NCBI RefSeq assembly: GCF_001677475.2
Contig: NZ_CP015229.1
Reading direction: 5' to 3' (one strand)
Source: Escherichia coli
Lineage (GTDB): Bacteria > Pseudomonadota > Gammaproteobacteria > Enterobacterales > Enterobacteriaceae
DNA length: 64,000 nucleotides
The translations under genes and the position numbers were made by a program. Below the pieces are notes generated by a model. It did not search any database. It saw only the letters and a list, made by a program, of their open reading frames with translations, and was not told the DNA's origin. Shown here piece by piece: positions 1 through 41,602 of this stretch (the first letter of the stretch is position 1; every line of letters starts with the position of its first letter).

Positions 1-1536
1 TAAGATCTCTTCCATTGAGGAGATCATCGGGATCATGATTTTCAGGCTGCCGTGAGCGGAGGCGCGCAGGATCGAGCGTAGTTGTGTGGTAAATAACGAC
101 GCGTATTCTTCATAAATACGCACCGCGCGATAACCGAGGAACGGGTTAGCTTCTGCCGGAATGTTCAGATAATCAACGGGTTTGTCACCGCCAATGTCCA
201 TAGTGCGCACAATAATGCTGCGTCCGTTGGCGGACTCCAGCGCCTGACAAAAAATGTTGTACAGCTCGCTTTCGCCCGGTGCGCTGGTGCGATCCATATA
301 GAGCATTTCAGTGCGGAACAAACCAACGCCTTCCGCACCATTGCCGAATGCGGCCTGCGCTTCCACGGAGTGAGCGATGTTAGCGGCAATTTCAATGCGG
401 ATACCGTCAGCGGTACGGGCTTGTTGGGTCAGCCAGACACGCTGTTGCTCACGCAGGGCGTCCTGTACGCGGGCTTCCTGCTGATAATAACGAGCTACGG
501 CTTCCCCTGGCTCAACCACAATCGCCCCAGCGTTGCCGTCGATATAAATCGTTTGATGCTGCCACGGAGTGAGGGCATCAATATCCACACCAACCAGCGT
601 CGGAATGTTGAACGAACGGGCAAGGATCACCGTATGTGAGGTGGTGCCGCCGCTTTTGAGCAACAATCCTTTGAGGTGATTTTTATCCAATTCGAGGAAC
701 TGGCTGGGGGTCAGTTCATCAGCCATACAAATGGCGGGCTGCGTCAGTTTGCCCGGTGCCGGGAAGCGTTGCTCACCGTAGATTTGCTGGAGTAACTGGA
801 AGCAGACGTCGCGTACGTCCAGGGCGCGTTCTTGCAGGTAGCTGCTGCTGGAACGGGCGAACTCTTCGCAGAAGTGGTGTGCACTGGCGACAATCGCTTC
901 GGCACAGCTTAATCCCTCGCTGACGCCTGCCAGTAAGTGCTGACGTAAAGAAGTATCGCCAGCCAGGGATCGGTGAGCTTCCAGTATCGCGCTGGTAGCA
1001 CCGTCGCTATCCAGCAGACGAAATTCAATGTTTTTCATCACCAGTGTCAGGCCGTTTTCCAGCGCGGATTGCTCGGCGTCAACGTCTTTGGCTGCGGGAA
1101 GATTACCCAGCGCATTGAGATCTAAAGAAGAGATCGGCGTCAGAATGCCGCCTGCGCTACCGCTGCACACGGTGCGGGCGCGGATAATTTGCGGATTCAG
1201 ATTGGTCAGTGAAACCGGCAGTGGTTCCAGTTCGTCAGATTTTACTTCCGCCAGCGGTGCGTCGCAGTGGGGGAATTCATCGCGCAGCCATTGGCTTAAA
1301 CGCTGGTGCGCTTCCTGTTCGTCGGCCCCGGAAATCAGTAACTGGCAGTTATCGCCCACCAGCGTATCGGTGCCAATCAGCGCAAGGGCGCTTTTGGCGT
1401 TGCCCTTGCGGTCAGTGCGCAGGTTATGCCACTCAATTTGTGATGAAAAAGTATTACACAGCGTTTCAACGTGGCTTGCCGGACGCGCATGTACGCCGTT
1501 AGGTAGCTCACAAATAAATTCCACAATCAGGGCCAT
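1..1536 (-). CDS. ptsA: PTS multiphosphoryl transfer protein (HPr-like plus enzyme I-like domains), N-terminal ~512 codons; 3' end runs off the window start
   Basis: Reverse complement of 1501-1536 reads ATGGCCCTGATTGTGGAATTT (MALIVEF..), in frame down to base 1 where it reads ..SAHGSLKIMIPMISSMEEIL. Absent from ORF track because no stop lies inside the window. Divergent from frwC. Confidence 0.85.
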   Translation of the reverse strand, partial: MALIVEFICELPNGVHARPASHVETLCNTFSSQIEWHNLRTDRKGNAKSALALIGTDTLVGDNCQLLISGADEQEAHQRLSQWLRDEFPHCDAPLAEVKSDELEPLPVSLTNLNPQIIRARTVCSGSAGGILTPISSLDLNALGNLPAAKDVDAEQSALENGLTLVMKNIEFRLLDSDGATSAILEAHRSLAGDTSLRQHLLAGVSEGLSCAEAIVASAHHFCEEFARSSSSYLQERALDVRDVCFQLLQQIYGEQRFPAPGKLTQPAICMADELTPSQFLELDKNHLKGLLLKSGGTTSHTVILARSFNIPTLVGVDIDALTPWQHQTIYIDGNAGAIVVEPGEAVARYYQQEARVQDALREQQRVWLTQQARTADGIRIEIAANIAHSVEAQAAFGNGAEGVGLFRTEMLYMDRTSAPGESELYNIFCQALESANGRSIIVRTMDIGGDKPVDYLNIPAEANPFLGYRAVRIYEEYASLFTTQLRSILRASAHGSLKIMIPMISSMEEIL

Positions 1537-1844
1537 TGCCTCTCTCCCGGTACGGTTTTCTGTTTACAGGATAAGAGCGCATGGCAACGACCTGCCATGT
1601 GACAAATCTGCCAAAAGCTGGACAAATGTAATGTAACCGCCAATTTGCGACGCGTCTCACAAGACGCCGTTTTGCGGCATGCTTCCGGATTATCGCAAGT
1701 TATGAGGCGGATCGCATTTTTGTACTGATATTACAAAAGTCCAGTAAATGGCCTTTTTATCCACTGTTTGCTCCGCCTGCGATTGCCTATTGTTTCCTCC
1801 ATCAAAAATATGGACATGGGCTTTCGCAAGCCCGGGAGCAGCTT

Positions 1845-2924
1845 ATGAATGAGTTGGTGCAGATCCTGAAAAATACCCGTCAGCATTTAATGACGGGCGT
1901 TTCACACATGATTCCCTTCGTGGTATCGGGCGGTATTTTGCTGGCGGTTTCCGTCATGTTGTATGGCAAAGGCGCAGTGCCGGATGCCGTAGCCGATCCG
2001 AATCTGAAAAAACTGTTTGATATCGGCGTTGCGGGTTTGACGCTGATGGTGCCTTTCCTCGCCGCTTACATTGGTTACTCCATTGCAGAGCGTTCTGCGC
2101 TGGCTCCGTGCGCTATCGGTGCCTGGGTCGGCAACAGCTTTGGTGCGGGTTTCTTTGGTGCGCTGATCGCCGGGATTATCGGCGGCATCGTGGTGCATTA
2201 TCTGAAGAAAATTCCGGTGCATAAAGTTCTGCGCTCGGTGATGCCCATCTTCATCATTCCTATCGTCGGCACACTGATTACCGCAGGCATCATGATGTGG
2301 GGCTTGGGCGAGCCTGTAGGGGCGTTGACCAACAGCCTGACTCAGTGGCTACAGGGGATGCAGCAGGGCAGCATTGTTATGCTGGCGGTGATCATGGGGC
2401 TGATGCTGGCGTTCGATATGGGCGGTCCGGTTAACAAAGTGGCCTATGCCTTCATGCTGATTTGCGTTGCTCAGGGTGTTTATACCGTGGTGGCTATTGC
2501 CGCTGTTGGGATTTGTGTTCCACCGCTGGGCATGGGGCTGGCGACGCTGATTGGTCGTAGAAATTTCTCCGCAGAAGAGCGCGAAACCGGTAAAGCAGCG
2601 CTAGTGATGGGGTGCGTTGGGGTTACTGAAGGGGCGATTCCTTTCGCCGCTGCCGATCCGCTGCGTGTTATTCCTTCCATCATGGTCGGTTCAGTTTGTG
2701 GTGCAGTAACTGCGGCGCTGGTCGGTGCGCAGTGCTATGCAGGCTGGGGTGGTCTGATTGTGCTGCCGGTGGTTGAAGGTAAGTTGGGTTATATCGCGGC
2801 AGTGGCTGTCGGGGCGGTTGTGACGGCAGTCTGCGTGAACGTGCTGAAAAGTCTGGCGCGTAAAAATGGGTCTTCGACTGATGAAAAAGAAGACGACCTG
2901 GATTTGGATTTTGAAATTAATTAA
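1845..2924 (+). CDS. frwC: PTS fructose-like permease IIC component
   Basis: 359-aa ORF, polytopic membrane protein, ATG at 1845, position in frw operon. Confidence 0.92.
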   Translation: MNELVQILKNTRQHLMTGVSHMIPFVVSGGILLAVSVMLYGKGAVPDAVADPNLKKLFDIGVAGLTLMVPFLAAYIGYSIAERSALAPCAIGAWVGNSFGAGFFGALIAGIIGGIVVHYLKKIPVHKVLRSVMPIFIIPIVGTLITAGIMMWGLGEPVGALTNSLTQWLQGMQQGSIVMLAVIMGLMLAFDMGGPVNKVAYAFMLICVAQGVYTVVAIAAVGICVPPLGMGLATLIGRRNFSAEERETGKAALVMGCVGVTEGAIPFAAADPLRVIPSIMVGSVCGAVTAALVGAQCYAGWGGLIVLPVVEGKLGYIAAVAVGAVVTAVCVNVLKSLARKNGSSTDEKEDDLDLDFEIN

Positions 2925-2938
2925 TTGAGGAACGAGCC

Positions 2939-3259
2939 ATGACGAAAATTATTGCAGTAACCGCGTGTCCATCTGGTGTTGCCCATACCTATATGGCGGC
3001 AGAGGCGCTGGAAAGTGCCGCGAAAGCGAAAGGCTGGGAAGTGAAAGTAGAAACCCAGGGCTCGATTGGTCTGGAAAATGAACTGACTGCGGAAGACGTG
3101 GCGAGCGCCGATATGGTGATTCTGACCAAAGATATCGGCATCAAGTTTGAAGAGCGTTTTGCTGGCAAGACCATCGTGCGCGTCAACATCAGCGACGCGG
3201 TAAAACGCGCTGATGCCATTATGAGCAAAATTGAAGCTCACCTGGCACAAACCGCTTAA
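2939..3259 (+). CDS. frwB: PTS fructose-like IIB component
   Basis: 106-aa ORF with N-terminal Cys phosphorylation-site motif (VTACPSGVAHTYMAAE). Confidence 0.92.
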   Translation: MTKIIAVTACPSGVAHTYMAAEALESAAKAKGWEVKVETQGSIGLENELTAEDVASADMVILTKDIGIKFEERFAGKTIVRVNISDAVKRADAIMSKIEAHLAQTA

Positions 3260-3309
3260 GTTCTTATCCCGCCCGTAAGGGCGGGTTCGCTTTCCCACAG
3301 GAGTTCCTC

Positions 3310-5607
3310 ATGACGAATCGTATCTCTCGCCTCAAAACTGCACTGTTTGCCAATACCCGTGAAATCTCGCTGGAGCGGGCGCTGCTTTATACCGCCAGCC
3401 ATAAGCAAACCGAAGGCGAACCGGTGATTATTCGTCGGGCAAAAGCCACGGCGTATATCCTTGAACATGTTGAAATTTCGATTCGTGATGAAGAACTGAT
3501 TGCTGGTAACCGCACCGTAAAACCTCGCGCCGGGATTATGTCGCCGGAAATGGATCCTTACTGGTTGCTGAAAGAGCTGGAGCAATTCCCGACGCGACCG
3601 CAGGATCGCTTTGCTATCAGTGAAGAAGATAAACGTATCTACCGCGAAGAGTTGTTCCCGTACTGGGAAAAACGTTCGATGAAAGATTTCATCAACGGGC
3701 AGATGACGGATGAAGTAAAAGCCGCAACCAGCACGCAGATTTTCAGCATCAACCAGACGGATAAAGGCCAGGGGCACATTATTATTGATTACCCACGCCT
3801 GTTGAATCACGGGCTGGGGGAGCTGGTGGCACAGATGCAGCAACATTGTCAGCAACAGCCGGAGAATCACTTTTATCAGGCCGCGCTGTTACTGCTGGAA
3901 GCTTCACAAAAACACATTTTGCGTTACGCCGAACTGGCAGAAACGATGGCGGCAAACTGCACCGATGCCCAGCGTCGCGACGAATTGCTGACTATTGCGG
4001 AGATCTCCCGCCATAACGCGCAACATAAGCCGCAGACGTTCTGGCAGGCGTGCCAGTTATTCTGGTACATGAACATCATTCTGCAATACGAATCCAACGC
4101 CAGTTCGCTGTCGTTAGGGCGCTTCGACCAGTATATGTTGCCGTTCTATCAGACATCATTAACCCAGGGCGAAGACCCGGCGTTCCTGAAAGAACTGCTC
4201 GAATCTTTATGGGTGAAGTGCAACGACATCGTGCTGTTACGCTCCACCAGCAGCGCGCGCTATTTCGCAGGTTTCCCGACCGGCTATACCGCGCTGCTCG
4301 GCGGTTTAACGGAAAACGGACGTAGTGCGGTGAACGTGCTTTCGTTCCTCTGCCTCGACGCCTATCAAAGCGTGCAATTACCGCAACCGAACCTGGGCGT
4401 GCGCACTAACGCCTTGATCGACACGCCGTTCCTGATGAAAACCGCAGAAACCATTCGCCTCGGCACCGGTATTCCGCAAATCTTTAACGATGAAGTGGTG
4501 GTGCCAGCGTTCCTCAACCGTGGCGTTTCGCTGGAAGATGCGCGCGACTATTCAGTAGTGGGCTGTGTGGAATTATCTATTCCCGGCAGAACCTACGGCT
4601 TGCATGACATCGCGATGTTTAACCTGCTGAAAGTGATGGAAATCTGCCTGCATGAAAATGAAGGCAATGCTGCGCTGACTTATGAAGGTTTACTGGAGCA
4701 GATCCGCGCCAAGATCAGCCACTACATCACCCTGATGGTTGAGGGCAGCAATATTTGCGATATCGGTCACCGTGACTGGGCACCTGTACCGCTGCTCTCA
4801 TCGTTTATCAGCGATTGTCTGGAAAAAGGCCGCGATATTACCGATGGCGGTGCGCGTTATAACTTCTCCGGCGTACAGGGGATCGGTATCGCCAACCTGA
4901 GCGATTCTCTCCATGCGTTGAAAGGTATGGTTTTTGAGCAACAGCGTTTAAGTTTTGACGAATTGCTGTCGGTATTAAAAGCCAACTTTGCAACGCCAGA
5001 AGGCGAAAAAGTCCGCGCTCGCTTAATTAACCGCTTTGAGAAATACGGTAACGATATCGACGAGGTGGATAACATTAGCGCCGAACTGTTGCGCCACTAC
5101 TGCAAAGAAGTGGAAAAATACCAGAACCCGCGCGGCGGCTACTTCACGCCGGGATCGTATACCGTTTCTGCTCACGTCCCGTTGGGATCGGTGGTTGGCG
5201 CGACGCCAGACGGTCGTTTTGCCGGGGAACAACTGGCAGACGGCGGCTTGTCACCTATGCTGGGTCAGGACGCACAAGGGCCAACGGCGGTACTGAAGTC
5301 AGTCAGTAAGCTCGATAATACGCTGCTGTCTAACGGTACGTTGCTGAACGTGAAATTCACTCCGGCGACCCTGGAAGGTGAAGCGGGATTACGCAAACTG
5401 GCCGACTTCTTACGGGCGTTTACCCAGCTTAAGTTGCAGCATATTCAGTTTAACGTGGTGAACGCCGACACGTTGCGGGAAGCGCAACAGCGCCCACAAG
5501 ATTATGCCGGGCTGGTGGTGCGCGTTGCCGGATACAGCGCCTTCTTTGTCGAATTGTCGAAGGAGATCCAGGATGACATCATCCGCCGGACAGCGCATCA
5601 GCTGTAA
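3310..5607 (+). CDS. pflD: Glycyl radical enzyme (annotated formate acetyltransferase 2)
   Basis: 765-aa ORF; C-terminal glycyl radical motif RVAGYSAFF; catalytic-loop-like GCVE. Confidence 0.93.
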   Translation: MTNRISRLKTALFANTREISLERALLYTASHKQTEGEPVIIRRAKATAYILEHVEISIRDEELIAGNRTVKPRAGIMSPEMDPYWLLKELEQFPTRPQDRFAISEEDKRIYREELFPYWEKRSMKDFINGQMTDEVKAATSTQIFSINQTDKGQGHIIIDYPRLLNHGLGELVAQMQQHCQQQPENHFYQAALLLLEASQKHILRYAELAETMAANCTDAQRRDELLTIAEISRHNAQHKPQTFWQACQLFWYMNIILQYESNASSLSLGRFDQYMLPFYQTSLTQGEDPAFLKELLESLWVKCNDIVLLRSTSSARYFAGFPTGYTALLGGLTENGRSAVNVLSFLCLDAYQSVQLPQPNLGVRTNALIDTPFLMKTAETIRLGTGIPQIFNDEVVVPAFLNRGVSLEDARDYSVVGCVELSIPGRTYGLHDIAMFNLLKVMEICLHENEGNAALTYEGLLEQIRAKISHYITLMVEGSNICDIGHRDWAPVPLLSSFISDCLEKGRDITDGGARYNFSGVQGIGIANLSDSLHALKGMVFEQQRLSFDELLSVLKANFATPEGEKVRARLINRFEKYGNDIDEVDNISAELLRHYCKEVEKYQNPRGGYFTPGSYTVSAHVPLGSVVGATPDGRFAGEQLADGGLSPMLGQDAQGPTAVLKSVSKLDNTLLSNGTLLNVKFTPATLEGEAGLRKLADFLRAFTQLKLQHIQFNVVNADTLREAQQRPQDYAGLVVRVAGYSAFFVELSKEIQDDIIRRTAHQL

Positions 5608-6451
5608 CGTTGTGGAAACGCGCCGCAATGATGTGGCGCGCATTTTCAACATTCAGCGTTATTCACTGAATGACGGCGAGGGCATTCGTACGGTGGTCTT
5701 TTTTAAAGGCTGTCCGCATCTTTGCCCATGGTGTGCTAATCCGGAGTCGATCTCCGGCAAAATCCAGACGGTACGCAGAGAGGCGAAATGTCTGCACTGT
5801 GCGAAATGTTTGCGTGATGCGGATGAATGCCCGTCCGGGGCGTTTGAACGGATTGGTCGCGATATCAGCCTTGACGCGCTGGAGCGGGAAGTGATGAAAG
5901 ATGACATTTTCTTTCGCACGTCCGGCGGCGGCGTCACGCTTTCTGGCGGCGAAGTGTTAATGCAGGCGGAGTTTGCGACCCGTTTTTTACAGCGACTTCG
6001 GCTGTGGGGGGTGTCATGCGCCATTGAAACTGCCGGAGACGCGCCAACCAGCAAGTTGTTACCGCTGGCGAAATTGTGCGATGAAGTGTTGTTCGATTTA
6101 AAAATTATGGACGTAACTCAGGCGCGGGATGTGGTGAAGATGAACCTGCCACGCGTGCTGGAGAATTTGCGTTTGCTGGTGAGTGAGGGTGTCAACGTGA
6201 TCCCGCGTTTACCGCTGATCCCTGGTTTCACGCTCAGCCGGGAGAATATGCAGCAGGCGCTGGACGTGCTGATCCCGCTGAATATCAGGCAGATCCATCT
6301 GTTACCGTTTCATCAGTACGGCGAACCAAAATACCGCCTGCTGGGGAAAACATGGTCGATGAAAGAGGTTGCTGCGCCGTCGTCAGCCGATGTGGCAACG
6401 ATGCGCGAAATGGCAGAACGGGCCGGATTTCAGGTTACCGTGGGAGGTTAA
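5573..6451 (+). CDS. pflC: Glycyl radical enzyme activating enzyme (radical SAM)
   Basis: ORF-track 5504..6451 trimmed to internal ATG at 5573 (MTSSAGQRISCNVVE..), giving 292 aa; CPHLCPWC radical-SAM triad; overlaps pflD 3' end by 35 bp. Confidence 0.9.
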   Translation: MTSSAGQRISCNVVETRRNDVARIFNIQRYSLNDGEGIRTVVFFKGCPHLCPWCANPESISGKIQTVRREAKCLHCAKCLRDADECPSGAFERIGRDISLDALEREVMKDDIFFRTSGGGVTLSGGEVLMQAEFATRFLQRLRLWGVSCAIETAGDAPTSKLLPLAKLCDEVLFDLKIMDVTQARDVVKMNLPRVLENLRLLVSEGVNVIPRLPLIPGFTLSRENMQQALDVLIPLNIRQIHLLPFHQYGEPKYRLLGKTWSMKEVAAPSSADVATMREMAERAGFQVTVGG

Positions 6452-6452
6452 A

Positions 6453-6794
6453 ATGGCATATCTGGTGGCAGTAACCGCCTGCGTAAGCGGCGTGGCGCAT
6501 ACTTATATGGCGGCGGAACGGCTGGAAAAGTTGTGCCAGTTAGAGAAGTGGGGCGTCAGCATTGAAACTCAGGGCGCGCTGGGAACGGAGAATCGTTTAG
6601 CGGACGAGGATATCCGCCGGGCGGATGTTGCGCTGCTGATTACGGATATCGAGCTTGCCGGTGCCGAGCGATTTGAACATTGCCGCTACGTGCAATGCAG
6701 CATCTACGCTTTCCTGCGTGAGCCGCAGCGGGTGATGAGCGCGGTACGCAAAGTGCTTTCTGCGCCGCAGCAAACCCATCTTATTCTGGAGTAG
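6453..6794 (+). CDS. frwD: PTS fructose-like IIB component 2
   Basis: ORF-track 6369..6794 trimmed to ATG 6453 (MAYLVAVTACVSGVAHTYMAAE..), 113 aa; paralog of frwB. Confidence 0.9.
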   Translation: MAYLVAVTACVSGVAHTYMAAERLEKLCQLEKWGVSIETQGALGTENRLADEDIRRADVALLITDIELAGAERFEHCRYVQCSIYAFLREPQRVMSAVRKVLSAPQQTHLILE

Positions 6795-7632
6795 TCGGTT
6801 TTTCTGTCAGTTGGCTGTGGTACTGCCGACGATATTCCGACGGTGAGCGTTCGGTATTTTTACGAAACAGACGGCAGAAGTAGTTGCTGTCGACAAAGCC
6901 GCAGGCGTGCGCCACTTCTTTTACCTTCAGGTCATAGCCTTTCAATAACGTCTTAGCGTGCTCCAGTCGCGTGTGATTCAGGTATTCGTTAAAACCAATG
7001 GCCCCCGTTTTTTGAAACAGGTGCGAGAGGTAATTTGGCGAAATATAGAATGCCTGTGCGACAGATTCGCGGGTAAGCGCGGAGGCATAGCGTTCGTCGA
7101 TATAATCACGAATAGCTTCGAACAGTGCCTGGCTGCGTGAGGCGGTCTGGATTTGGCTGCCAAGCAAATCGCGGCAGTGGCTAAGCAGGCTGGCGACGAT
7201 AAGCCTTGCCGTTTGCTGCTCTTGCGACTGCATTTGCATTTCATTGAGCGTTTGTAGCAGAAAAGAACCAATGCGCGGGCCGCGTCGGGCGACGTGTTGC
7301 TTCGCCAGATTTTGATATTGTTTGCCATCCCATTGCACGACGCTGAAGCCGAGTTGCTGTTTGCCAAACAGCACGCTAAAGGTAGTGGCGGGGGCTTGCC
7401 ATTGTGGAAAATTCCAGCCACCAGCGGGAACGTACAGCACATCGCCGGGAACTAACGTTGCTCCAGCGCCGGTATCAACAAACTCACCTTCCAGCACAAT
7501 TTCCAGCCGTGGAAAATCGACCTGATACGCGAGATCGGGGACCGGACCGTTGCTGCTGGCAAAGTAAATCTGGCGCAGGGACAGCGGGCCGTTGATCAGG
7601 CGGGAGAGCAGATAGCTGACGTCGTGATACAT
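6781..7632 (-). CDS. yijO: AraC-family transcriptional regulator
   Basis: 283-aa ORF with C-terminal AraC-type HTH region; convergent with frwD, 14-bp overlap. Confidence 0.9.
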   Translation of the reverse strand: MYHDVSYLLSRLINGPLSLRQIYFASSNGPVPDLAYQVDFPRLEIVLEGEFVDTGAGATLVPGDVLYVPAGGWNFPQWQAPATTFSVLFGKQQLGFSVVQWDGKQYQNLAKQHVARRGPRIGSFLLQTLNEMQMQSQEQQTARLIVASLLSHCRDLLGSQIQTASRSQALFEAIRDYIDERYASALTRESVAQAFYISPNYLSHLFQKTGAIGFNEYLNHTRLEHAKTLLKGYDLKVKEVAHACGFVDSNYFCRLFRKNTERSPSEYRRQYHSQLTEKPTTPE

Positions 7633-7675
7633 GTTATTCCCTTAGGTATGTAGACGGGAAAACAGTAACTGGCAT

Positions 7676-7707
7676 TATTAAAAAAGGCCACCTGAAAAGT
7701 GTGGCCT
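7676..7707 (-). terminator. Intrinsic terminator downstream of eptC
   Basis: On minus strand, hairpin aggccacacttttcaggtggcct followed by a T-run. Confidence 0.6.
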
Positions 7708-7780
7708 GAGGGGAGTTCGATGTAAACATTGCGACAGTATCGCATCCGGCAAATAGCGCCAGACGCGATACAAAGGTCAT

Positions 7781-9514
7781 TTACTGATTACCTACCTGGT
7801 CGCCATACGGCAGCGTGTCGTAATCGATCAGCGCGTTTTTCTTGTACGGGTTACCAATCCAGCGGGTAGTTTCTTTGAACTGCGGATTCACCACTGAACG
7901 GGTTGGGTCGTAACCGTCGTAAGATAAGCCCGCCAAATCTGACCAGGTGTGGATCAGTTCCGCCAGGCTGTATTTACGATCAACATCCTGTGAGAAATCA
8001 CGCGGATGAGTCGCTTGCCATTTTTCCGACGTCCACAGCAGGAACGGAATGGTGTACATATGACGCGTCGGGTTGTCCTCATTACGCCCCTGAGTTTTGT
8101 GCGGCGGCGTGTCGTAAACCTCTTCACCGTGGTCAGAGAAGTAAACCAGGAAACCGTTCGGGTCTGCTGCTTTAAAGTCTTTAATCAGGCTGGCAACCAC
8201 ATGATCGTTATACAAGTTAGCGTTGTCATAATCGTTATATGACTCCAGTTCTTCTGCGCTTAATCCCGGCGGAACATGATCGGTATTGCCATCAAACTTG
8301 CCCTGATTTTCCGGGTAGCGGTATTTGTATTTGATATGCGTACCCAGCAGATGAACGATGATCAGTTTCTTCGGCGCAGGGTCATTCAGCACTTCCTGGA
8401 ACGGCTTCAGCACGTTGGTGTCGTATTCACGCGCACTCTGCGTACGTTGCTGGTTCATGTAGTACTGCTTGTCGGTCTGGCGCGAAAATACCGTCAGCAT
8501 GGTATTGCGGGCGGTCATCGTCTGCTGGTTGGTGATCCAGAAGGTTTTATAACCTGCCTGTTTCATCATGTTCATCAGCGACGGCTGTGTCAGATACAGG
8601 TCCGGGTTCTTTTCATTGGCAAAAGTCAGCGCCTGTTGCAGGATTTCAATGGTGTACGGACGAGACGTCACCACGTTATTAAACACGGTCAGATTCGGAT
8701 CGGTTTTATGCAGCGCATCCAGCTCCGGCGTGGTTTCACGCGGATAACCGTACAGACTCATGCGGCCACGCTGGGTCGACTCGCCAATCACCAGCACTAA
8801 AGTGCGCGGTTCGTTACCCGATTCATCTTTGAAATTCGCCAACGGCGGCAAGGCATTATTTTCATTCAGTAGCTTTGTTAGCGAGTTTAGTTGCTGACGA
8901 TACTGATAATAGCCGGTCAGGAATTGCCACGGTGCGGCAGGCTCCATACGCGATGCCAGGTTATCCAACGTTTTCTCAAACGGCTTGTTTTTGATAAACG
9001 TATTCATGGCGATCGGATGCAGAATCAAGCCATAAAGCAGGGCAAAAGAGACAACATAACGCCACGGCTTTGGAATATAGACCGGGCGCAGGCGTGTCCA
9101 CAGCAGAACTGCCACCGCCGTATAGGCCAGCGCGATAAGCACAATTTTCAGGCTGAAATACTGGCTTAAATACTCGCTGGCTTCGTTGGTGTTGGTTTCG
9201 AACATCACAAACAGAACGCTCTGCGAGAACTCCTGACCGTAGATGACGTAGTAGCACAGCGCCGCCAGAGAGGCCGCCCATAGCACCACGCCGATTACTG
9301 CGGCAATAATTTTAATCCGCTTCGGAAAGAGGAATACCGGGATCAACCACAGCGAACTGAATAACAGCGAGTCGCGAATGCCGTTAGTGCCACTATAACC
9401 ACTGATGTAAATAATGGCCTGTAGCAGAGTAGAGAAAAACCAAAAGTAGAGCAGTGCCCAACCCAGGGCTTTCCAGCTAAAAAGAGGTTTAGCCTGGACT
9501 TCTGTGGAATGCAT
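7781..9514 (-). CDS. eptC: Phosphoethanolamine transferase (LPS core modification)
   Basis: ORF-track 7781..9559 trimmed to Met at 9514 (MHSTEVQAKPLFSWKAL..), 577 aa; N-terminal TM helices plus sulfatase-like domain. Confidence 0.9.
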   Translation of the reverse strand: MHSTEVQAKPLFSWKALGWALLYFWFFSTLLQAIIYISGYSGTNGIRDSLLFSSLWLIPVFLFPKRIKIIAAVIGVVLWAASLAALCYYVIYGQEFSQSVLFVMFETNTNEASEYLSQYFSLKIVLIALAYTAVAVLLWTRLRPVYIPKPWRYVVSFALLYGLILHPIAMNTFIKNKPFEKTLDNLASRMEPAAPWQFLTGYYQYRQQLNSLTKLLNENNALPPLANFKDESGNEPRTLVLVIGESTQRGRMSLYGYPRETTPELDALHKTDPNLTVFNNVVTSRPYTIEILQQALTFANEKNPDLYLTQPSLMNMMKQAGYKTFWITNQQTMTARNTMLTVFSRQTDKQYYMNQQRTQSAREYDTNVLKPFQEVLNDPAPKKLIIVHLLGTHIKYKYRYPENQGKFDGNTDHVPPGLSAEELESYNDYDNANLYNDHVVASLIKDFKAADPNGFLVYFSDHGEEVYDTPPHKTQGRNEDNPTRHMYTIPFLLWTSEKWQATHPRDFSQDVDRKYSLAELIHTWSDLAGLSYDGYDPTRSVVNPQFKETTRWIGNPYKKNALIDYDTLPYGDQVGNQ

Positions 9515-9649
9515 AGTAAGAACCTGTCTTGAAAAAAATATCGCCGAATGTACCGACAATTCCTTAAGGATATCTGAAGGGATATCCAGAATTTGAATAA
9601 AATGCAGACAGAAATATATTGAAAACGAGGGTGTTAGAACAGAAGTATT

Positions 9650-9682
9650 TCAGAAAACCCTCGCGCAAAAGCGCGAGGGTTT
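9650..9682 (-). terminator. Intrinsic terminator of ppc
   Basis: GC-rich hairpin ccctcgcgc..gcgcgaggg followed by a T-run on minus strand, just 3' of the ppc stop. Confidence 0.7.
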
Positions 9683-9696
9683 GCAGGAGAGGAAGA

Positions 9697-12348
9697 TTAG
9701 CCGGTATTACGCATACCTGCCGCAATCCCGGCAATAGTGACCATTAACGCCTGCTCGACGCGAGGATCCGGCTCATGGCCTTCTTTTTCTGCCTGGCGGG
9801 AGCGGTGCAGCAACTCGGCCTGCAATACGTTCAGCGGGTCGGTGTAAATATTCCGTAGCTGAATAGACTCTGCAATCCACGGCAGATCGGCCATCAGATG
9901 GGAATCGTTGGCAATCGCCAGCACCACTTTGATGTCTTCTTCTTGCAGATTGCGTAACTCTTTACCTAACGGCCACAGTGCTTTGTCTACCAGACGTTGA
10001 TCATAGTATTCCGCCAGCCACAGGTCTGCTTTGGCGAATACCATTTCCAGCATACCCAGACGCGTCGAGAAGAACGGCCAATCGCGGCACATAGCCTCCA
10101 GCTCGCTCTGTTTGCCGTCTTCGACCACTTTTTGCAGCGCCGTACCTGCACCCAGCCAGGCGGGGAGCATCAGGCGGTTTTGCGTCCAGGCGAAAATCCA
10201 CGGAATGGCGCGTAGTGACTCGACGCCGCCGGTTGGGCGACGTTTCGCCGGACGTGAACCCAACGGCAGTTTGCCCAGTTCTTGTTCCGGCGTAGCGGAG
10301 CGGAAGTAAGGCACAAAATCTTTGTTTTCACGTACGTAGCCACGGTAGAGATCGCAGGAGATGACTGACAGTTCATCCATAATGCGACGCCAGCTCTCTT
10401 TCGGCTCAGGTGGTGGCAGCAGGTTGGCTTCCAGAATCGCCCCGGTGTACAGCGACAGGCTGCTGACGGTGATTTCTGGCAGACCATATTTAAAGCGGAT
10501 CATCTCGCCCTGTTCAGTCACGCGCAGGCCACCTTTCAGGCTTCCTGGCGGTTGTGACAGCAGCGCCGCATGAGCAGGTGCGCCGCCACGACCAATGGAA
10601 CCGCCGCGACCGTGGAACAACGTCAGCTCAATACCCGCTTTTTCGCAGGTTTTGATTAATGCATCCTGTGCCTGATATTGCGCCCAGGAAGCTGCCATCA
10701 CGCCCGCATCTTTTGCTGAGTCGGAATAGCCAATCATCACCATCTGTTTGCCCTGAATCAGGCCGCGATACCAGTCGATATTGAGCAGCTGGGTCATGAC
10801 ATCGTTGGCGTTGTTCAGGTCATCGAGAGTTTCAAACAGCGGAGCAACCGGCATTGCAAACCCGATACCCGCTTCTTTCAGCAGCAGGTGGACAGCCAGC
10901 ACGTCGGACGGCGTTTTCGCCATCGAGATCACGTAGGCGGCAATGGAGCCTTGCGGCGCTTCGGCAATCACCTGGCAGGTATCGAGCACTTCGCGCGTTT
11001 CGGCGCTTGGTTGCCAGTTGCGCGGCAGAAGCGGACGTTTGGAGTTCAGTTCGCGGATCAGGAACGCCTGTTTGTCGGCCTCTGACCAGCTTTCGTAGTC
11101 GCCGATACCGAGGTAGCGGGTCAGCTCGCCCAGCGCTTCGGTATGGCGGGTGCTCTCCTGACGGATATCAATACGGACCAGCGGTACGCCGAAACATTTC
11201 ACGCGGCGCAGGGTGTCGAGCAGATCGCCGTTGGCGATAATACCCATGCCACACGCCTGAAGTGACTGGTAGCAAGCGTAGAGCGGTTCCCACAGTTCTT
11301 CGTTTTGTGTCAGCAGGCCTTCTGGTTTTGGCAGTTCTTCGCCTTTCAGGCGCGCTTCCAGCCATGCCTGTGTCGCCATCAGGCGAGAACGCAGGTTTTT
11401 CATCAGATAGCGATACGGTTCTGCGGCACCTTCTTCGCCAACCAGCGCCAGCAGTTCAGGGGTCGCTTCAACCATCGACAGTTCAGAAACCAGCACCTGA
11501 ATATCTTTCAGGAACAGATCGGTGGCTTTCCAGCGACTGAGCAGCAGGACGTGGCGGGTGATATCGGCAGTGACGTTCGGGTTGCCGTCGCGGTCACCGC
11601 CCATCCACGAGGTAAAACGGACCGGAACAAATTCGACGGGCAGTTTGTAGCCGAGATTCTCTTCCAGTTGTTCGTTCAGTTCGCGCAGGTAATTTGGTAC
11701 GCCTTGCCACAGGCTGTTTTCTACTACGGCAAAGCCCCATTTGGCTTCATCTACCGGGCTTGGACGCAGCTTACGGATTTCATCGGTATGCCATGACTGG
11801 GCGATCAACTGGCGCAGGCGGCGCATCAGCTGGTTGTGTTCGTAGTCAGCGATATCTTTGTTATCGAGCTGTTTTAAACAGGCGTTCACTTCCACCATTT
11901 TGTGGATCAGCGTACGACGGGTAATTTCGGTTGGGTGAGCCGTGAGGACCAGTTCCAGCGACAGCGATTCCACTGCTTTTTTGATGGTGTCTTCGCTCAG
12001 TTCCGGCTGGTTTTTCAGTTTACGCAGGGTGCGGGCGATCACTTCCGGGTTGCTGGCAGCTTCGCCTTTCGGCGAAATGCTGTGGTATTGCTCGGCGGTG
12101 TTGGCCAGGTTCAGGAACTGACTAAACGCACGCGCAACGGGCAGCAGCTCGTCGTTCGACAAATTTTGTAAGGTGGTGAGCAACTCCTGGCGGTTAGCAT
12201 CATTGCCAGCGCGTGAAGATTTGGACAACTTACGGATAGTTTCTACGCGTTCAAGAATGTGTTCTCCCAACGCATCCTTGATGGTTTCTCCCAGCACTTT
12301 GCCGAGCATACTGACATTACTACGCAATGCGGAATATTGTTCGTTCAT
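9697..12348 (-). CDS. ppc: Phosphoenolpyruvate carboxylase
   Basis: 883-aa [32 protein letters not shown].. through C-terminal ..GMRNTG. Confidence 0.97.
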
Positions 12349-12675
12349 ATTACCCCAGACACCCCATCTTATCGTTTGATAGCCCTGTATCCTTCACGTC
12401 GCATTGGCGCGAATATGCTCGGGCTTTGCTTTTCGTCGTCTTTTATAAAGCCACGTAAAAGCGGTGACGTCAAATGCTGCGAAATCGCTTCAGCAAACGA
12501 ATAAATAGCAGGAATTTACGTCATTAAATTCACGACGCTTTAAATAAGCGTAACTTATGGGAATGTTAAAAAATCGCCTCAAGTAACACCAAAGAGTTAT
12601 GAGTTGTAGTTACCATTTGGGCAATCATCTGAGATTGCTGACAAACTCGTTTACGGGTCAGTATGGGCACGGTTT

Positions 12676-12720
12676 TCCCCTCACCCTAACCCTCTCCCCG
12701 AAGGGGCGAGGGGACTGTCC
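12676..12720. repeat. GC-rich palindromic (REP-like) element in the ppc-argE intergenic region
   Basis: Imperfect inverted repeat cccctcaccctaaccctctcccc / ggggcgagggg around a gaag loop. Confidence 0.4.
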
Positions 12721-12760
12721 GTGCGCTTGCATGGCTTTGTCATCAGCCTGATTTGCTTTT

Positions 12761-13912
12761 TTAATGCCAGCAAAAATGATGAATTACCTGGGTTATCAGT
12801 TCGCGGGTGGGCTTGATAAACCGTGTTTCCAGATATTCATCAGGCTGATGAGCCTGATTAATTGAGCCAGGGCCCAGAACCAGCGTCGGGCATAACGTTT
12901 GAATAAACGGCGCTTCGGTACAGTAATTCACCACTTCGGTCTTTGCTCCGAGCAATTTCTCAACTACTTCAACCAGTTGATGATTTGGCGGGCATTCATA
13001 GCCAGGGATCGGCGGATGCAGCTCGTCGACCGTCAGACGACCCGGCCAGCGTTCGCTCACCGGAGCCAGCGCATCGTTGAGTAGGCCATTAAGTTCATTG
13101 AGTGTCATGCCCGGCAGCGGACGAATATCCATATGCAACTCACAGCAAGCGCAGATACGGTTAGCCGCGTCGCCGCCGTGAATATGACCGAGGTTAAGCG
13201 TGGGGTAAGGCACGGTAAATGCCTCATAGTGATAGCGTTCTTTAAGATTGTCACGCAGTTGCAGGATATGACCGATGGCGTCGTGCATCAGTTCGATAGC
13301 GTTAACTCCGCGTGCTGGATCGCTGGAGTGGCCCGACTGGCCCTGAATACGGATGGCGTTAGAGATATGACCTTTATGTGCGCGTACCGGTTGTAGTGAC
13401 GTCGGTTCGCCAATGATGGCGCAATCCGGGCGCAGGGCGGTAGTTTCGGCAAAATAACGCGCTCCGGCCATACTGGTTTCTTCATCGGCAGTCGCCAGAA
13501 TGTAGAGCGGTTTTTTCAGTTTCGTGACGTCGACATCGCGTAGCGCATCAAGGATAAACGCAAAAAAGCCTTTCATGTCGGCGGTGCCTAAGCCGTAAAG
13601 CTTGCCGTCATGCTCCGTCAGTGTAAACGGATCGCGCGTCCAGCGTCCGTCATCAAATGGCACCGTATCGGTATGCCCCGCCAGCAACAAGCCGCCAGCC
13701 CCCTGTCCGGTACTTGCCAGCATATTAAATTTGTTGCGAGTTCCTGGCACAGGCTGCACTTCCACATTGAAGCCTAAATCTTTAAACCAGTCCGCCAGCA
13801 GAGTGATTAAATCTGCATTGCTTTGATCGAGTGCCTCTTCCGTGGCGCTTATTGAAGGTGTGGCAATCAGAGCACGGTAAATCTCGATAAATGGCGGTAA
13901 TTTGTTTTTCAT
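12761..13912 (-). CDS. argE: Acetylornithine deacetylase
   Basis: ORF-track 12761..13951 trimmed to Met at 13912 ([15 protein letters not shown]..), 383 aa. Confidence 0.93.
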
Positions 13913-13927
13913 TGTTGACACACCTCT

Positions 13928-13968
13928 GGTCATGATAGTATCAATATTCATGCAGTATTTATGAATAA
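13928..13968. promoter_or_regulatory. ARG boxes (ArgR operators) in the divergent argE / argCBH control region
   Basis: Tandem AT-rich 18-bp half-palindromes, e.g. ATGAATAAAAATACAC, between the divergent starts. Confidence 0.6.
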
Positions 13969-14065
13969 AAATACACTAACGTTGAGCGTAATAAAACCCA
14001 CCAGCCGTAAGGTGAATGTTTTACGTTTAACCTGGCAACCAGACATAAGAAGGTGAATAGCCCCG

Positions 14066-15070
14066 ATGTTGAATACGCTGATTGTGGGTGCCAGCGGCTA
14101 CGCTGGCGCAGAGCTAGTGACCTATGTAAATCGCCATCCGCATATGAACATAACCGCTTTGACTGTTTCAGCGCAAAGCAATGATGCGGGAAAGTTAATC
14201 TCCGATTTGCATCCGCAGCTAAAAGGCATCGTTGATCTGCCGTTGCAGCCGATGTCGGATATCAGCGAGTTTAGCCCAGGGGTGGACGTGGTGTTTCTCG
14301 CCACCGCCCATGACGTTAGCCACGATTTAGCGCCGCAATTTCTTGAAGCCGGCTGCGTGGTGTTCGACCTTTCCGGCGCGTTTCGTGTTAACGACGCCAC
14401 CTTCTATGAAAAATATTACGGCTTTACCCATCAGTATCCGGAACTGCTGGAACAGGCAGCCTACGGTCTGGCCGAGTGGTGCGGTAATAAATTAAAAGAA
14501 GCGAACTTGATTGCGGTGCCAGGCTGTTATCCGACGGCGGCACAGCTGGCGCTGAAACCGTTGATAGATGCCGATCTTCTTGACCTCAATCAGTGGCCGG
14601 TGATCAACGCCACCAGCGGCGTGAGCGGTGCAGGACGTAAGGCAGCGATTTCAAATAGTTTTTGTGAAGTTAGCCTGCAACCGTATGGCATCTTTACCCA
14701 TCGCCATCAACCAGAGATCGCCACACACCTCGGTGCTGACGTTATCTTCACCCCGCATCTGGGCAATTTCCCGCGCGGCATTCTCGAAACCATTACCTGC
14801 CGCCTGAAATCGGGTGTGACCCAGGCGCAAGTCGCGCAAGTGTTACAGCAGGCGTATGCCCATAAACCGCTGGTGCGGCTGTATGACAAAGGCGTTCCGG
14901 CGCTGAAAAATGTCGTTGGGCTGCCATTTTGCGATATCGGGTTTGCCGTTCAGGGCGAGCATCTGATTATTGTGGCGACCGAAGACAACTTACTGAAAGG
15001 CGCGGCGGCACAAGCGGTACAGTGCGCCAATATTCGTTTCGGCTATGCGGAAACGCAGTCTCTTATTTAA
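14066..15070 (+). CDS. argC: N-acetyl-gamma-glutamyl-phosphate reductase
   Basis: 334-aa [20 protein letters not shown].. Confidence 0.95.
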
Positions 15071-39990: not shown

Positions 39991-41190
<1,200 letters not shown>

Positions 41191-41602
41191 TGCCTTTACG
41201 TGGGCGGTGATTTTGTCTACAATCTTACCCCCACGTATAATGCTTAATGCAGACGTATATCCGAGATATTCGGGTTGTGGCAAGGCGGCAACTGAGTGAG
41301 TCGCCAGGAGCATAGCTAACTATGTGACTGGTGCGAACGAAGGAAGCCAACGCCGCCACAAGCTGAATAGCGACGGATAGAAAAGATTTGTTCGTTGGAG
41401 CCTGGCCTATCCAGGCCTCCGTCGAAGACCGCAGGAGTTTCGCAAGAAACTTAATCCCCTGCGTAGACGGTGACAGAACGCTAAGATTATTCTTTTATAT
41501 TCTGGCTTGTTTCTGCTCACCGTAATTAAGACGCTCTCTCCGTTTGGAGGAGTGAAGTGAGTTCCAGAGATTTTCTCTGGCAAACATCCAGGAGCAAAGC
41601 TA
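41191..41602 (+). promoter_or_regulatory. rplJL leader (L10 promoter and L10-(L12)4 autoregulatory mRNA leader)
   Basis: About 410-nt untranslated, structured region between rplA and rplJ, as in the known L10 operon. Confidence 0.65.

What the first reader, a model, noticed from the sequence alone, without database searches (positions are those of the whole stretch)
1..6794. Cryptic PTS-plus-glycyl-radical operon with duplicated IIB genes and a fused EI-HPr-IIA partner
ptsA (minus strand, HPr-like N-terminus MALIVEF..NGVHARPA.. fused to enzyme I-like domains) diverges from a tightly packed operon frwC (IIC) - frwB (IIB) - pflD - pflC - frwD (second IIB). The glycyl radical genes sit inside the PTS operon, pflC overlaps pflD by 35 bp, and there are two IIB genes but one IIC. 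The arrangement implies a dedicated anaerobic catabolic route for an unidentified PTS substrate. The 308-bp divergent control region (1537-1844) should hold its regulation.
Basis: partly seen in the sequence, partly recalled or inferred. Interest (0 to 1): 0.4.

Follow-up and report, generated by a model that had tools for sequence, protein, structure and literature searches.

The report
Known E. coli anhydro-sugar fermentation locus
This is the long-annotated frw/pflDC gene cluster of Escherichia coli; it was a puzzle for about 30 years, but a 2024 study showed that its radical enzyme PflD drives anaerobic breakdown of the anhydro-sugar 1,5-anhydromannitol, so the finding is correct but already explained.

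Summary
ptsA (5' 512 codons, minus strand) diverges across 308 bp from frwC-frwB-pflD-pflC-frwD. pflD and pflC overlap by 35 bp, and there are two IIB genes for one IIC.

This is the classical E. coli 89-min 'frw' cluster (Reizer et al. 1995). It is present in 5,425 of 5,426 complete E. coli genomes and syntenic from Salmonella to Vibrio.

PflD is not a pyruvate formate-lyase. It has the dehydratase-type Cys-x-Glu site and is about 99% identical to PDB 8yjo.

Ma et al. (JACS 2024, read through a 2025 review) showed that PflD opens 1,5-anhydromannitol-6-phosphate to 1-deoxyfructose-6-phosphate after PTS phosphorylation, strictly anaerobically. The downstream enzymes FsaB and GldA sit behind ptsA, just off the window.

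'Cryptic' and 'unidentified substrate' are out of date.

Modest additions from this work:
- The control region holds two mirrored, deeply conserved ATTACA-N4-TCCAG boxes, probably YijO operators.
- It holds two CRP-type sites (one matches a published CRP ChIP-seq peak) and no FNR site.
- A conserved hairpin separates frwB from pflD.

Novelty: already known. Interest: low.

The parts
1..1536 (-). ptsA (frwA), 5' part: codons 1-512 of an 833-codon multiphosphoryl transfer protein. It has an HPr domain (His16 in GVHARPA) and the N-terminal and middle parts of enzyme I (His301 in TSHTVILAR). The rest of EI and the IIA domain lie off the window.
   Evidence: Translation. NCBIfam EI and HPr hits. 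Pfam on the full-length E. coli orthologue gives HPr 7-84, EI 123-653 and EIIA_2 690-829. Residue positions.
1537..1844 (.). Divergent control region of 308 bp. Its length is conserved (302-311 bp) across the sampled Enterobacteriaceae genera and Yersinia.
1592..1636 (-). Left operator-like block. It holds the ATTACATTTGTCCAG box (1618-1632, minus strand) and a weaker second repeat, GTCACAT, 20 bp further toward ptsA. It is a candidate YijO (AraC-type) site for the ptsA-fsaB-gldA promoter.
   Evidence: The box occurs only twice in the 64 kb. It is mirrored, and the two copies are 112 bp apart in most of the ~38 loci that have both exact boxes. Cross-species consensus. The assignment to YijO is inferred.
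1646..1661 (.). CRP-type site 1, TGCGACGCGTCTCACA. The half-sites are conserved and the spacer varies freely. Orbaceae and Pasteurellaceae have the canonical TGTGA-N6-TCACA.
   Evidence: It is the only CRP core with at most 1 mismatch in the whole window. Per-species 16-mers.
1701..1716 (.). CRP-type site 2, TATGAGGCGGATCGCA.
   Evidence: It is the reverse complement of TGCGATCCGCCTCATA, the motif assigned to the CRP ChIP-seq peak 'ptsA/frwC' in ETEC H10407 (PMC4287617). It is conserved across genera.
1730..1770 (+). Right operator-like block. It holds the ATTACAAAAGTCCAG box (1730-1744) and a second repeat, ATCCACT (1759-1765), 20 bp downstream. It is a candidate YijO site abutting the -35 of the frwC promoter.
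   Evidence: The same box sits directly upstream of pflD in PTS-less Kluyvera.
1788..1793 (+). Candidate -10 hexamer (TATTGT) of the frwC promoter, within the conserved GATTGCCTATTGT. A mirror candidate for ptsA is TATCCT (1573-1568, minus strand).
   Evidence: Conserved block; coordinates. This is inferred: the consensus promoter scan found nothing here, as expected for an activator-dependent promoter.
1845..2924 (+). frwC, fructose-family PTS EIIC (359 aa).
   Evidence: NCBIfam NF007787, 719 bits against a cut-off of 426.
2939..3259 (+). frwB, PTS EIIB (106 aa), phosphorylatable Cys10 in VTACPSGVAHT.
   Evidence: NF007783, 210 bits against 135. The motif is invariant in 76 of 76 orthologues.
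3268..3285 (+). GC-rich stem-loop (CCCGCCC-GTAA-GGGCGGG) followed by a weak U-tract, in the frwB-pflD spacer. It is probably a partial terminator or an mRNA-stabilising hairpin.
   Evidence: Terminator-like scan hit. MFE -18.5 kcal/mol, z = -2.7. It is conserved in 18 species with one compensatory pair. Unrelated hairpins or REP elements occupy the same place in other genera.
3310..5607 (+). pflD, a glycyl radical enzyme (765 aa), with Gly741 (RVAGYS), Cys419 and Glu421 (GCVE). Per the literature it is the 1,5-anhydromannitol-6-phosphate ring-opening 'dehydratase'.
   Evidence: PMC12441222.
5573..6451 (+). pflC, the radical-SAM activase of PflD (292 aa). It has CX3CX2C at residues 47-54 and one auxiliary Cys motif at 73-86. 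It overlaps pflD by 35 nt.
   Evidence: NF007483, 626 bits against 326. Motifs. The same 35-nt overlap is annotated in E. coli and Salmonella, and tblastn start offsets imply it in most other loci.
6453..6794 (+). frwD, a second PTS EIIB (113 aa), 44% identical to FrwB. Cys10 is kept.
   Evidence: NF007747, 225 bits against 153. BLASTP against FrwB. The Cys is kept in 73 of 73 orthologues.
6781..7632 (-). yijO, an AraC-family regulator (283 aa), convergent with frwD and overlapping it by 14 bp. It is the probable pathway regulator.
   Evidence: Pfam HTH_18 and HTH_AraC at residues 179-270. It is linked to pflDC in nearly every sufficiently long locus examined, including the PTS-less ones. It is listed as uncharacterised in PMC4797297.

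Best explanation
Window 1-7632 is the right-hand half of the enterobacterial locus for anaerobic catabolism of 1,5-anhydro-D-mannitol ('radical-mediated glycolysis').

Proposed mechanism, step by step:
1. PEP phosphorylates the tripartite protein PtsA (EI His301, then HPr His16, then the IIA domain).
2. PtsA passes the phosphoryl group to Cys10 of the soluble IIB proteins FrwB and/or FrwD.
3. The IIC permease FrwC imports the anhydro-sugar as its 6-phosphate.
4. PflC, a radical-SAM activase, installs a glycyl radical on PflD Gly741.
5. PflD (thiyl radical at Cys419, Glu421 as the base) opens the anhydro-sugar ring by C-O cleavage, giving 1-deoxyfructose-6-phosphate.
6. FsaB splits that product into glyceraldehyde-3-phosphate and hydroxyacetone, and GldA reduces the hydroxyacetone to 1,2-propanediol. 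Both genes are co-transcribed with ptsA just off the window.

Basis of each step:
- Shown in the literature: the PflD reaction, the requirement for PTS phosphorylation, and strict anaerobiosis.
- From my recollection of the Ma et al. abstract, consistent with the gene context: step 6.
- Inferred here: that the Frw proteins are the PTS responsible.
- Inferred here: that expression runs from two mirror-image promoters, each with a tandem AraC-type (YijO) operator and a CRP site about 92 bp upstream.
- Inferred here: that a hairpin after frwB lowers or stabilises transcript levels between the transporter genes and the enzyme genes.
For: Identity of the locus:
- It matches the annotated ptsP(ptsA)/frwC/frwB/pflD/pflC/frwD/yijO genes at 97.8% in 5,425 of 5,426 E. 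coli genomes.
- All five plus-strand genes pass the NCBIfam equivalog cut-offs.

Enzyme class:
- PflD is about 99% identical to PDB 8yjo 'Probable dehydratase PflD'.
- Its next-best solved relatives are glycerol and diol dehydratases and choline TMA-lyase, not PFL.
- GCVE aligns with the GCVE of glycerol dehydratase.
- The PFL1 model scores 121 against a cut-off of 994.

Function:
- PMC12441222 summarises Ma et al. 2024: PTS phosphorylation, then YbiW and PflD cleave 1,5-AG6P and 1,5-AM6P respectively to 1-deoxyfructose-6-P, under strict anaerobiosis.
- ptsA-fsaB-gldA form one operon (PMC6643234; annotation).

Selection and linkage:
- Substitutions are mostly synonymous (pflD 73 nt against 7 aa).
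- The full gene set is conserved in about 70 loci from Escherichia to Vibrio, Gilliamella and Necropsobacter despite rearrangements.

Regulation:
- Conserved footprints.
- The box pair is unique in the 64 kb and usually 112 bp apart.
- A CRP ChIP-seq site lies at ptsA/frwC.
- The boxes are retained upstream of pflD in PTS-less Kluyvera, together with a yijO-like gene.
Against: - The primary paper (doi 10.1021/jacs.4c07718) is not in the held library. The PflD substrate rests on a secondary summary and on PDB molecule names. The FsaB and GldA steps rest partly on memory.
- The review says only 'a PTS', not the Frw PTS specifically.
- Kluyvera and Edwardsiella piscicida keep pflDC and a yijO-like gene without any frw genes nearby, so another transporter can feed PflD.
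- No transcription start, terminator or YijO binding data were available. The consensus scan finds no sigma-70 promoter in 1537-1844, and the repeat finder did not report the mirrored boxes.
- Only part of PtsA is in the window.
Confidence: 0.85

Rival explanations
1. The Frw PTS does not carry 1,5-anhydromannitol. AM6P is made by a general PTS (mannose, glucose or fructose type), and FrwCBD/PtsA either transport a different fructose-like sugar or serve mainly as a phosphorylation-state sensor for the operon.
For: - The accessible literature says only 'a PTS'.
- The YbiW paralogue pathway has no dedicated PTS in its cluster (my knowledge of the E. coli map).
- PTS-less pflDC plus yijO clusters exist in Kluyvera and E. 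piscicida.
- FrwD stays next to yijO in several gene orders.
Against: - frwC, frwB, frwD and ptsA are linked to pflDC in about 70 of 80 loci across four families, and apparently share one symmetric control region with them.
- A dedicated EI-HPr-IIA protein co-transcribed with the downstream enzymes FsaB and GldA is hard to explain otherwise.
Confidence: 0.15
2. This is the historical annotation. PflD and PflC are a second pyruvate (or 2-ketoacid) formate-lyase and its activase, serving anaerobic catabolism of fructose taken up by a fructose-like PTS.
For: - RefSeq and NCBIfam still name PflD 'formate C-acetyltransferase' and the PTS 'fructose-like'.
Against: - PflD has no Cys-Cys dyad; it has the single Cys-x-Glu of the dehydratase/eliminase class.
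- The PFL1 model scores 121 bits against a cut-off of 994.
- The closest solved relatives are dehydratases.
- The published activity is AM6P ring opening.
Confidence: 0.02
3. The operon is a cryptic, decaying remnant with no current function in this lineage.
For: - It has historically been regarded as silent under laboratory conditions.
- No strong consensus promoter was found.
Against: - All reading frames are intact and have ribosome-binding sites.
- Substitutions against E. coli are overwhelmingly synonymous.
- The locus is present in 5,425 of 5,426 E. coli genomes and syntenic across families.
- Non-coding operator blocks are conserved out to Vibrio.
- The review reports that these pathways let E. 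coli and other gut bacteria grow on 1,5-anhydroglucitol.
Confidence: 0.02

Closest known systems
E. coli K-12 frw cluster (ptsA/frwA-fsaB-gldA <> frwC-frwB-pflD-pflC-frwD, yijO). Sources: Reizer, Reizer & Saier 1995, Microbiology 141:961; Ma et al. 2024, JACS 146:26187.
   Same: - Same genes in the same order, with the same 35-nt pflD/pflC overlap and the same 308-bp divergent region.
- PflD is about 99% identical to the crystallised K-12 enzyme.
   Different: - There is only strain-level divergence: at most 97.8-98.9% nucleotide identity to any complete E. coli genome.
- The frwC-frwB spacer differs by 4 nt.
- PflD has seven conservative substitutions.
E. coli YbiW/YbiY with FsaA (the 1,5-anhydroglucitol-6-phosphate branch of the same pathway).
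   Same: - It is a paralogous glycyl radical enzyme with its activase and an Fsa-type aldolase.
- It yields the same product, 1-deoxyfructose-6-P.
- YbiW is a solved relative of PflD (8yjn and 8id7, E about 1e-143).
   Different: - It acts on a different epimer (gluco rather than manno).
- It has no dedicated PTS in its cluster (my knowledge).
- Its regulator is different: YciT is proposed, against the AraC-type YijO here.
B12-independent glycerol dehydratase (PDB 1r8w), and CutC choline TMA-lyase.
   Same: - Same GRE subclass (TIGR01774).
- The Cys-x-Glu catalytic loop and the RVxGY glycyl motif align.
- Each has a dedicated radical-SAM activase next door.
   Different: - The substrate here is a phosphorylated cyclic anhydro-sugar, and the C-O cleavage opens a ring.
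- The enzyme is embedded in a PTS operon rather than a microcompartment or diol operon.
E. coli fructose PTS (FruA IIB'-IIB-IIC with the multidomain FruB).
   Same: - It belongs to the fructose-family IIC/IIB.
- It has two IIB-type modules per IIC and a multidomain phosphoryl-transfer partner. This is established knowledge, and the NCBIfam cross-hits to PRK10712 agree.
   Different: - Here the IIB modules are two free proteins, and both align to the catalytic IIB region of FruA (profile positions 105-198).
- Both keep the Cys.
- The partner protein also contains its own Enzyme I.

Membership tests
Glycyl radical enzymes, PFL2/glycerol-dehydratase subclass (TIGR01774) | Whole-protein HMM score above the curated cut-off | tested here: met
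   1349 bits against 678. The PflD equivalog NF007437 scores 1725 against 1109.
Glycyl radical enzymes, PFL2/glycerol-dehydratase subclass (TIGR01774) | C-terminal glycyl radical motif RVxG[YF] | tested here: met
   RVAGYS at residues 738-743, with Gly741.
Glycyl radical enzymes, PFL2/glycerol-dehydratase subclass (TIGR01774) | A single catalytic Cys with Glu two residues downstream (GCVE), aligned to glycerol dehydratase | tested here: met
   Cys419 and Glu421. They align with the GCVE of PDB 1r8w.
Glycyl radical enzymes, PFL2/glycerol-dehydratase subclass (TIGR01774) | An adjacent radical-SAM activase with CX3CX2C | tested here: met
   PflC scores 626 bits against 326, and has CPHLCPWC at residues 47-54.
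Pyruvate formate-lyase proper (TIGR01255) | HMM score above the cut-off, and an adjacent Cys-Cys catalytic dyad | tested here: not met
   121 bits against a cut-off of 994. The active-site loop reads VGCVE, with no Cys-Cys dyad.
1,5-anhydromannitol-6-phosphate dehydratase (PflD of Ma et al. 2024) | Orthology to the characterised E. coli enzyme | tested here: met
   Seven substitutions in 765 residues against PDB 8yjo, and the same genomic context.
1,5-anhydromannitol-6-phosphate dehydratase (PflD of Ma et al. 2024) | Catalytic conversion of AM6P to 1-deoxyfructose-6-P | not testable with these tools
   Known only from the literature summary. The primary paper is not held.
Fructose-family PTS (EIIC, EIIB, EIIA, HPr, EI) | An EIIC of the fructose family | tested here: met
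   NF007787 scores 719 against 426. TIGR01427 scores 301 against 158.
Fructose-family PTS (EIIC, EIIB, EIIA, HPr, EI) | EIIB with a phosphorylatable P-loop Cys | tested here: met
   FrwB and FrwD both have Cys10. It is kept in 76 of 76 and 73 of 73 orthologues.
Fructose-family PTS (EIIC, EIIB, EIIA, HPr, EI) | EI, HPr and EIIA modules with their active-site histidines | tested here: inconclusive
   - The HPr His16 and EI His301 motifs are present in the window.
- The HPr and EI models score below their cut-offs, the EI match being cut short by the window edge.
- The EIIA domain was seen only in the E. coli orthologue L001.
Fructose-family PTS (EIIC, EIIB, EIIA, HPr, EI) | Demonstrated substrate and phosphotransfer | not testable with these tools
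The substrate is inferred from linkage to pflDC.
AraC-type activator with tandem operator half-sites at a CRP-assisted promoter (the araBAD, rhaBAD and melAB type) | An AraC-family HTH regulator linked to the operon | tested here: met
   YijO has HTH_18 and HTH_AraC domains. It is linked to pflDC in nearly every sufficiently long locus examined.
AraC-type activator with tandem operator half-sites at a CRP-assisted promoter (the araBAD, rhaBAD and melAB type) | Tandem repeats about two helical turns apart abutting the -35, bound by the regulator | tested here: inconclusive
   Conserved repeats 20 bp apart are present on both sides with mirror geometry. Binding by YijO and the transcription starts were not tested.
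AraC-type activator with tandem operator half-sites at a CRP-assisted promoter (the araBAD, rhaBAD and melAB type) | CRP binding upstream | tested here: met
   Conserved CRP-type sites at 1646-1661 and 1701-1716. The second matches the site assigned to a CRP ChIP-seq peak at ptsA/frwC.

The most novel reading that the evidence does not exclude
The second IIB, FrwD, is not just a spare phosphocarrier. It is the sensor arm of the switch: its phosphorylation state, set by whether FrwC is transporting sugar, is read by the AraC-type regulator YijO. YijO then acts on the two mirrored ATTACA-N4-TCCAG operators to fire both divergent operons together.

This would be a PTS-to-AraC signalling link. It resembles how IIB domains control Mlc or PRD-containing regulators, but with a different regulator class.

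The evidence does not exclude it:
- frwD stays beside yijO in four or five different gene orders.
- frwD overlaps yijO convergently.
- FrwD keeps its Cys everywhere.
- FrwD evolves faster than FrwB.
Probability: 0.12. Interest if true: 0.35.

Novelty: already known. Interest (0 to 1): 0.1.

Why it matters
The locus itself matters. It is one of two E. coli routes that let gut bacteria ferment 1,5-anhydro-hexitols by radical chemistry, and its 1,5-anhydroglucitol sister branch (YbiW) concerns a clinical glycaemic marker and the toxic precursor in GSD-Ib and G6PC3 neutropenia (PMC12441222).

That significance has already been established by others. The gene arrangement has been in the literature since 1995.

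What this re-examination adds is small:
- a concrete, testable map of the still-uncharacterised regulation (YijO boxes, two CRP sites, no FNR site, an intra-operon hairpin);
- the open question of why there are two catalytic IIB proteins.

Tried and rejected
1. FNR control. No match to TTGAT-N4-ATCAA with up to 3 mismatches in 1537-1844, and no conserved block resembles one. Anaerobic specificity probably lies in the oxygen-sensitive enzyme, not in an FNR site.
2. The generic sigma-70 promoter scan found nothing in the control region. That fits activator-dependent promoters, but the transcription starts remain unproven.
3. The repeat finder reported no inverted repeat in 1537-1844. The mirrored boxes emerged only from cross-species alignment and a pattern search. 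In the window alone the 40-mer mirror similarity is only modestly above shuffles (26 matches against at most 24 in 30 shuffles).
4. Rfam: no RNA family in 1-9700 at E up to 0.1.
5. The first alignment of 27 frwB-pflD spacers gave no consensus fold, because unrelated hairpins were misaligned. A subset of 18 gave a 7-bp stem with one covarying pair.
6. The primary paper by Ma et al. could not be read.
7. The roughly 500 plasmid hits turned out to be an eptC/cptA paralogue, not the frw genes.
8. I tried to identify the source strain. E. coli E69 (L003) has an identical PflD but is only 94.6% identical at the DNA level. The source remains unidentified.
9. FrwD as an IIB'-like non-catalytic module is rejected. 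It aligns to the catalytic IIB region of FruA and keeps the Cys.

Full report
**Observation**

- ptsA is on the minus strand with its ATG ending at 1536. It begins MALIVEF...NGVHARPA and runs off the left edge after 512 codons.
- On the plus strand lie frwC 1845-2924, frwB 2939-3259, pflD 3310-5607, pflC 5573-6451 and frwD 6453-6794.
- The spacers are 14 nt and 50 nt, then a 35-nt overlap, then 1 nt. The divergent region 1537-1844 is 308 bp.
- All frames are intact, and each has a Shine-Dalgarno-like sequence upstream.
- All five plus-strand proteins pass NCBIfam's curated equivalog cut-offs.

Four refinements:
- In the full-length E. coli orthologue, PtsA is HPr(7-84)-EI(123-653)-IIA(690-829). 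The order is therefore HPr-EI-IIA, and the IIA domain is not in the window.
- The convergent AraC-family gene yijO (6781-7632) overlaps frwD by 14 bp.
- The 50-nt frwB-pflD spacer contains a strong GC hairpin.
- ptsA is followed off-window by fsaB and gldA.

**What it is**

Megablast finds the 8-kb segment in 5,425 of 5,426 complete E. coli genomes, annotated ptsP(ptsA)/frwC/frwB/pflD/pflC/frwD/yijO/eptC. This is the 'frw' cluster described by Reizer, Reizer & Saier in 1995 (reference list of PMC6643234).

The window is a natural variant. Its best identity to any complete genome is 97.8-98.9%, while other Escherichia species are at most 94.6% identical. The differences are overwhelmingly synonymous (pflD has 73 nt differences but only 7 aa differences). 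The genes are therefore under purifying selection, not decaying.

**The enzyme**

PflD is a glycyl radical enzyme of the PFL2/glycerol-dehydratase subclass (TIGR01774, 1349 bits against 678).
- It has the RVAGYS motif with Gly741.
- It has a single catalytic Cys419 followed by Glu421 (GCVE). This aligns with the same motif of B12-independent glycerol dehydratase.
- It fails the true pyruvate formate-lyase model (121 bits against 994).
- It is about 99% identical to PDB 8yjo, 'Probable dehydratase PflD'. After a PflD homologue (8id0), its nearest solved relatives are glycerol and diol dehydratases, YbiW and choline TMA-lyase.
- PflC has the radical-SAM CX3CX2C motif (residues 47-54).

**Function in the literature**

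A 2025 review (PMC12441222) summarises Ma et al., JACS 2024, 146:26187.
- 1,5-anhydroglucitol and 1,5-anhydromannitol are phosphorylated by a PTS.
- YbiW and PflD then cleave 1,5-AG6P and 1,5-AM6P respectively to 1-deoxyfructose-6-phosphate.
- This is glycyl-radical chemistry that works only under strict anaerobiosis.

The primary paper is not in the held library. From my memory of its abstract, FsaA or FsaB then split the product into glyceraldehyde-3-P and hydroxyacetone, and GldA reduces the latter to 1,2-propanediol. This fits the fact that fsaB and gldA form one operon with ptsA.

**Comparative evidence**

A scan of species-representative genomes with PflD returned 80 loci. tblastn synteny shows three patterns:
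- gldA-fsaB-ptsA <> frwC-frwB-pflD-pflC-frwD >< yijO is conserved in Escherichia, Salmonella, Citrobacter, Enterobacter, Pluralibacter, Atlantibacter, Buttiauxella and Lelliottia. Hafnia, Rahnella, Serratia and Yersinia keep the same order but lack gldA (Yersinia also lacks fsaB) in the hits.
- The same genes, apart from gldA in most, occur in rearranged order in Gilliamella, Zophobihabitans, Necropsobacter and Vibrio.
- Kluyvera and Edwardsiella piscicida keep only pflD-pflC plus a yijO-like gene, with unrelated neighbours.

The same 35-nt pflD/pflC overlap is annotated in E. coli and Salmonella, and tblastn start offsets imply it in most other loci. So pflDC plus yijO is the core, and the Frw PTS with PtsA, FsaB and often GldA is a very frequent companion. 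That the Frw proteins are the transporter for the PflD substrate is a strong linkage inference, not a demonstrated fact.

**The two IIBs**

- FrwB and FrwD are 44% identical.
- Both align to the catalytic IIB region of FruA.
- Both keep the P-loop Cys in every orthologue (76 of 76 and 73 of 73).
- FrwD evolves faster than FrwB (as low as 41-46% identity against 71-75% in Gilliamella and Necropsobacter).
- FrwD remains adjacent to yijO in several different gene orders.

However, FrwD is found only where FrwC and FrwB are present. It is most simply a second phosphoryl donor. A regulatory role toward YijO is possible but unsupported.

**Control region**

Alignment of 23 genera reveals deep footprints:
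- Two mirrored boxes, ATTACA-N4-TCCAG, lie at 1618-1632 (minus strand) and 1730-1744 (plus strand).
  - They are the only two copies in the 64-kb window.
  - They are 112 bp apart in most of the ~38 loci that have both exact boxes.
  - Each is followed 20 bp further out by a weaker repeat (GTCACAT and ATCCACT), and 22-23 bp beyond that by a conserved -10-like hexamer (TATCCT for ptsA, TATTGT for frwC).
- Two CRP-type sites lie between the boxes.
  - Site 1 is 1646-1661, TGCGA-N6-TCACA. Its half-sites are conserved and its spacer varies freely. It is the only core with at most 1 mismatch in the window.
  - Site 2 is 1701-1716, TATGAGGCGGATCGCA. It is the reverse complement of the motif assigned to the CRP ChIP-seq peak 'ptsA/frwC' in ETEC H10407 (PMC4287617).

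With the inferred transcription starts, each CRP site sits about 92 bp upstream of one promoter. The right-hand box and a CRP2-like element persist directly upstream of pflD in PTS-less Kluyvera. This ties the boxes to the pflDC/yijO core.

YijO is still listed as uncharacterised. Assigning the boxes to it is an inference. No FNR-like site exists.

**Intra-operon hairpin**

- CCCGCCC-GTAA-GGGCGGG (3268-3285) folds at -18.5 kcal/mol, z = -2.7.
- It is conserved in 18 Enterobacteriaceae species, with one compensatory pair.
- In Salmonella, Citrobacter, Klebsiella, Gilliamella and Vibrio it is replaced by unrelated hairpins or REP elements at the same position. It is absent in Rahnella.
- It is often followed by a U-rich run.
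- It probably acts as a partial terminator or an mRNA-stability element that sets the ratio of transporter transcripts to enzyme transcripts. This is inferred.

**Verdict**

The residual open points are incremental: the YijO operators, the role of the second IIB, and the hairpin. Novelty: already known. Interest: low.

Noticed in passing
window 7797-7999 (3' end of eptC/cptA, minus strand): About 500 E. coli plasmids, many around 80-95 kb among those listed and several from cattle or human stool, carry a cptA-annotated paralogue 80-83% identical to this segment of the chromosomal phosphoethanolamine transferase gene.
   Followed up: partly
whole window (tested 1-8000 and 40000-60000): No complete E. 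coli genome out of 5,426 is more than 99% identical (best 97.8% and 98.9%). E. coli is nevertheless clearly the nearest species, with other Escherichia species at most 94.6% identical. The source is an unusual E. coli/Shigella-group lineage that I could not identify.
   Followed up: partly
window 3268-3285: A GC-rich hairpin with a weak U-tract lies between frwB and pflD. The structure is conserved in many genera, but outside a core group of Enterobacteriaceae the sequence is not. In Salmonella and Citrobacter it is replaced by REP-type palindromes.
   Followed up: yes
window 6781-6794: frwD and the convergent yijO overlap by 14 bp, with no terminator-like site for either gene. The same overlap is present in Salmonella. 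Read-through of the frw operon would make antisense RNA to its own presumed regulator.
   Followed up: partly
L033, L034, L042, L051 (Kluyvera) and L077 (Edwardsiella piscicida), around 10001-15000: pflD-pflC plus a yijO-like AraC gene occur without any frw PTS, ptsA, fsaB or gldA nearby. In Kluyvera the cluster sits between fhlA/hyp genes and a heme receptor, and two small ORFs with no family match lie between pflC and the regulator.
   Followed up: partly
L018, L025, L075, positions ~400-2700: In Pluralibacter, Phytobacter and one Citrobacter, a second, distant (35% identical) PflD-like glycyl radical enzyme gene lies about 1 kb beyond gldA, on the same strand as gldA.
   Followed up: no
window 2925-2938: The frwC-frwB spacer is 14 nt here but 10 nt in E. 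coli RM14516. The difference is a 4-nt indel in a TTAATTAATT run.
   Followed up: no
window 5573-6451 (PflC residues 73-86): After its radical-SAM cluster motif, PflC carries only one CX2CX2CX6C auxiliary cysteine motif. As I recall, many dehydratase-class activases have two ferredoxin-like motifs.
   Followed up: no
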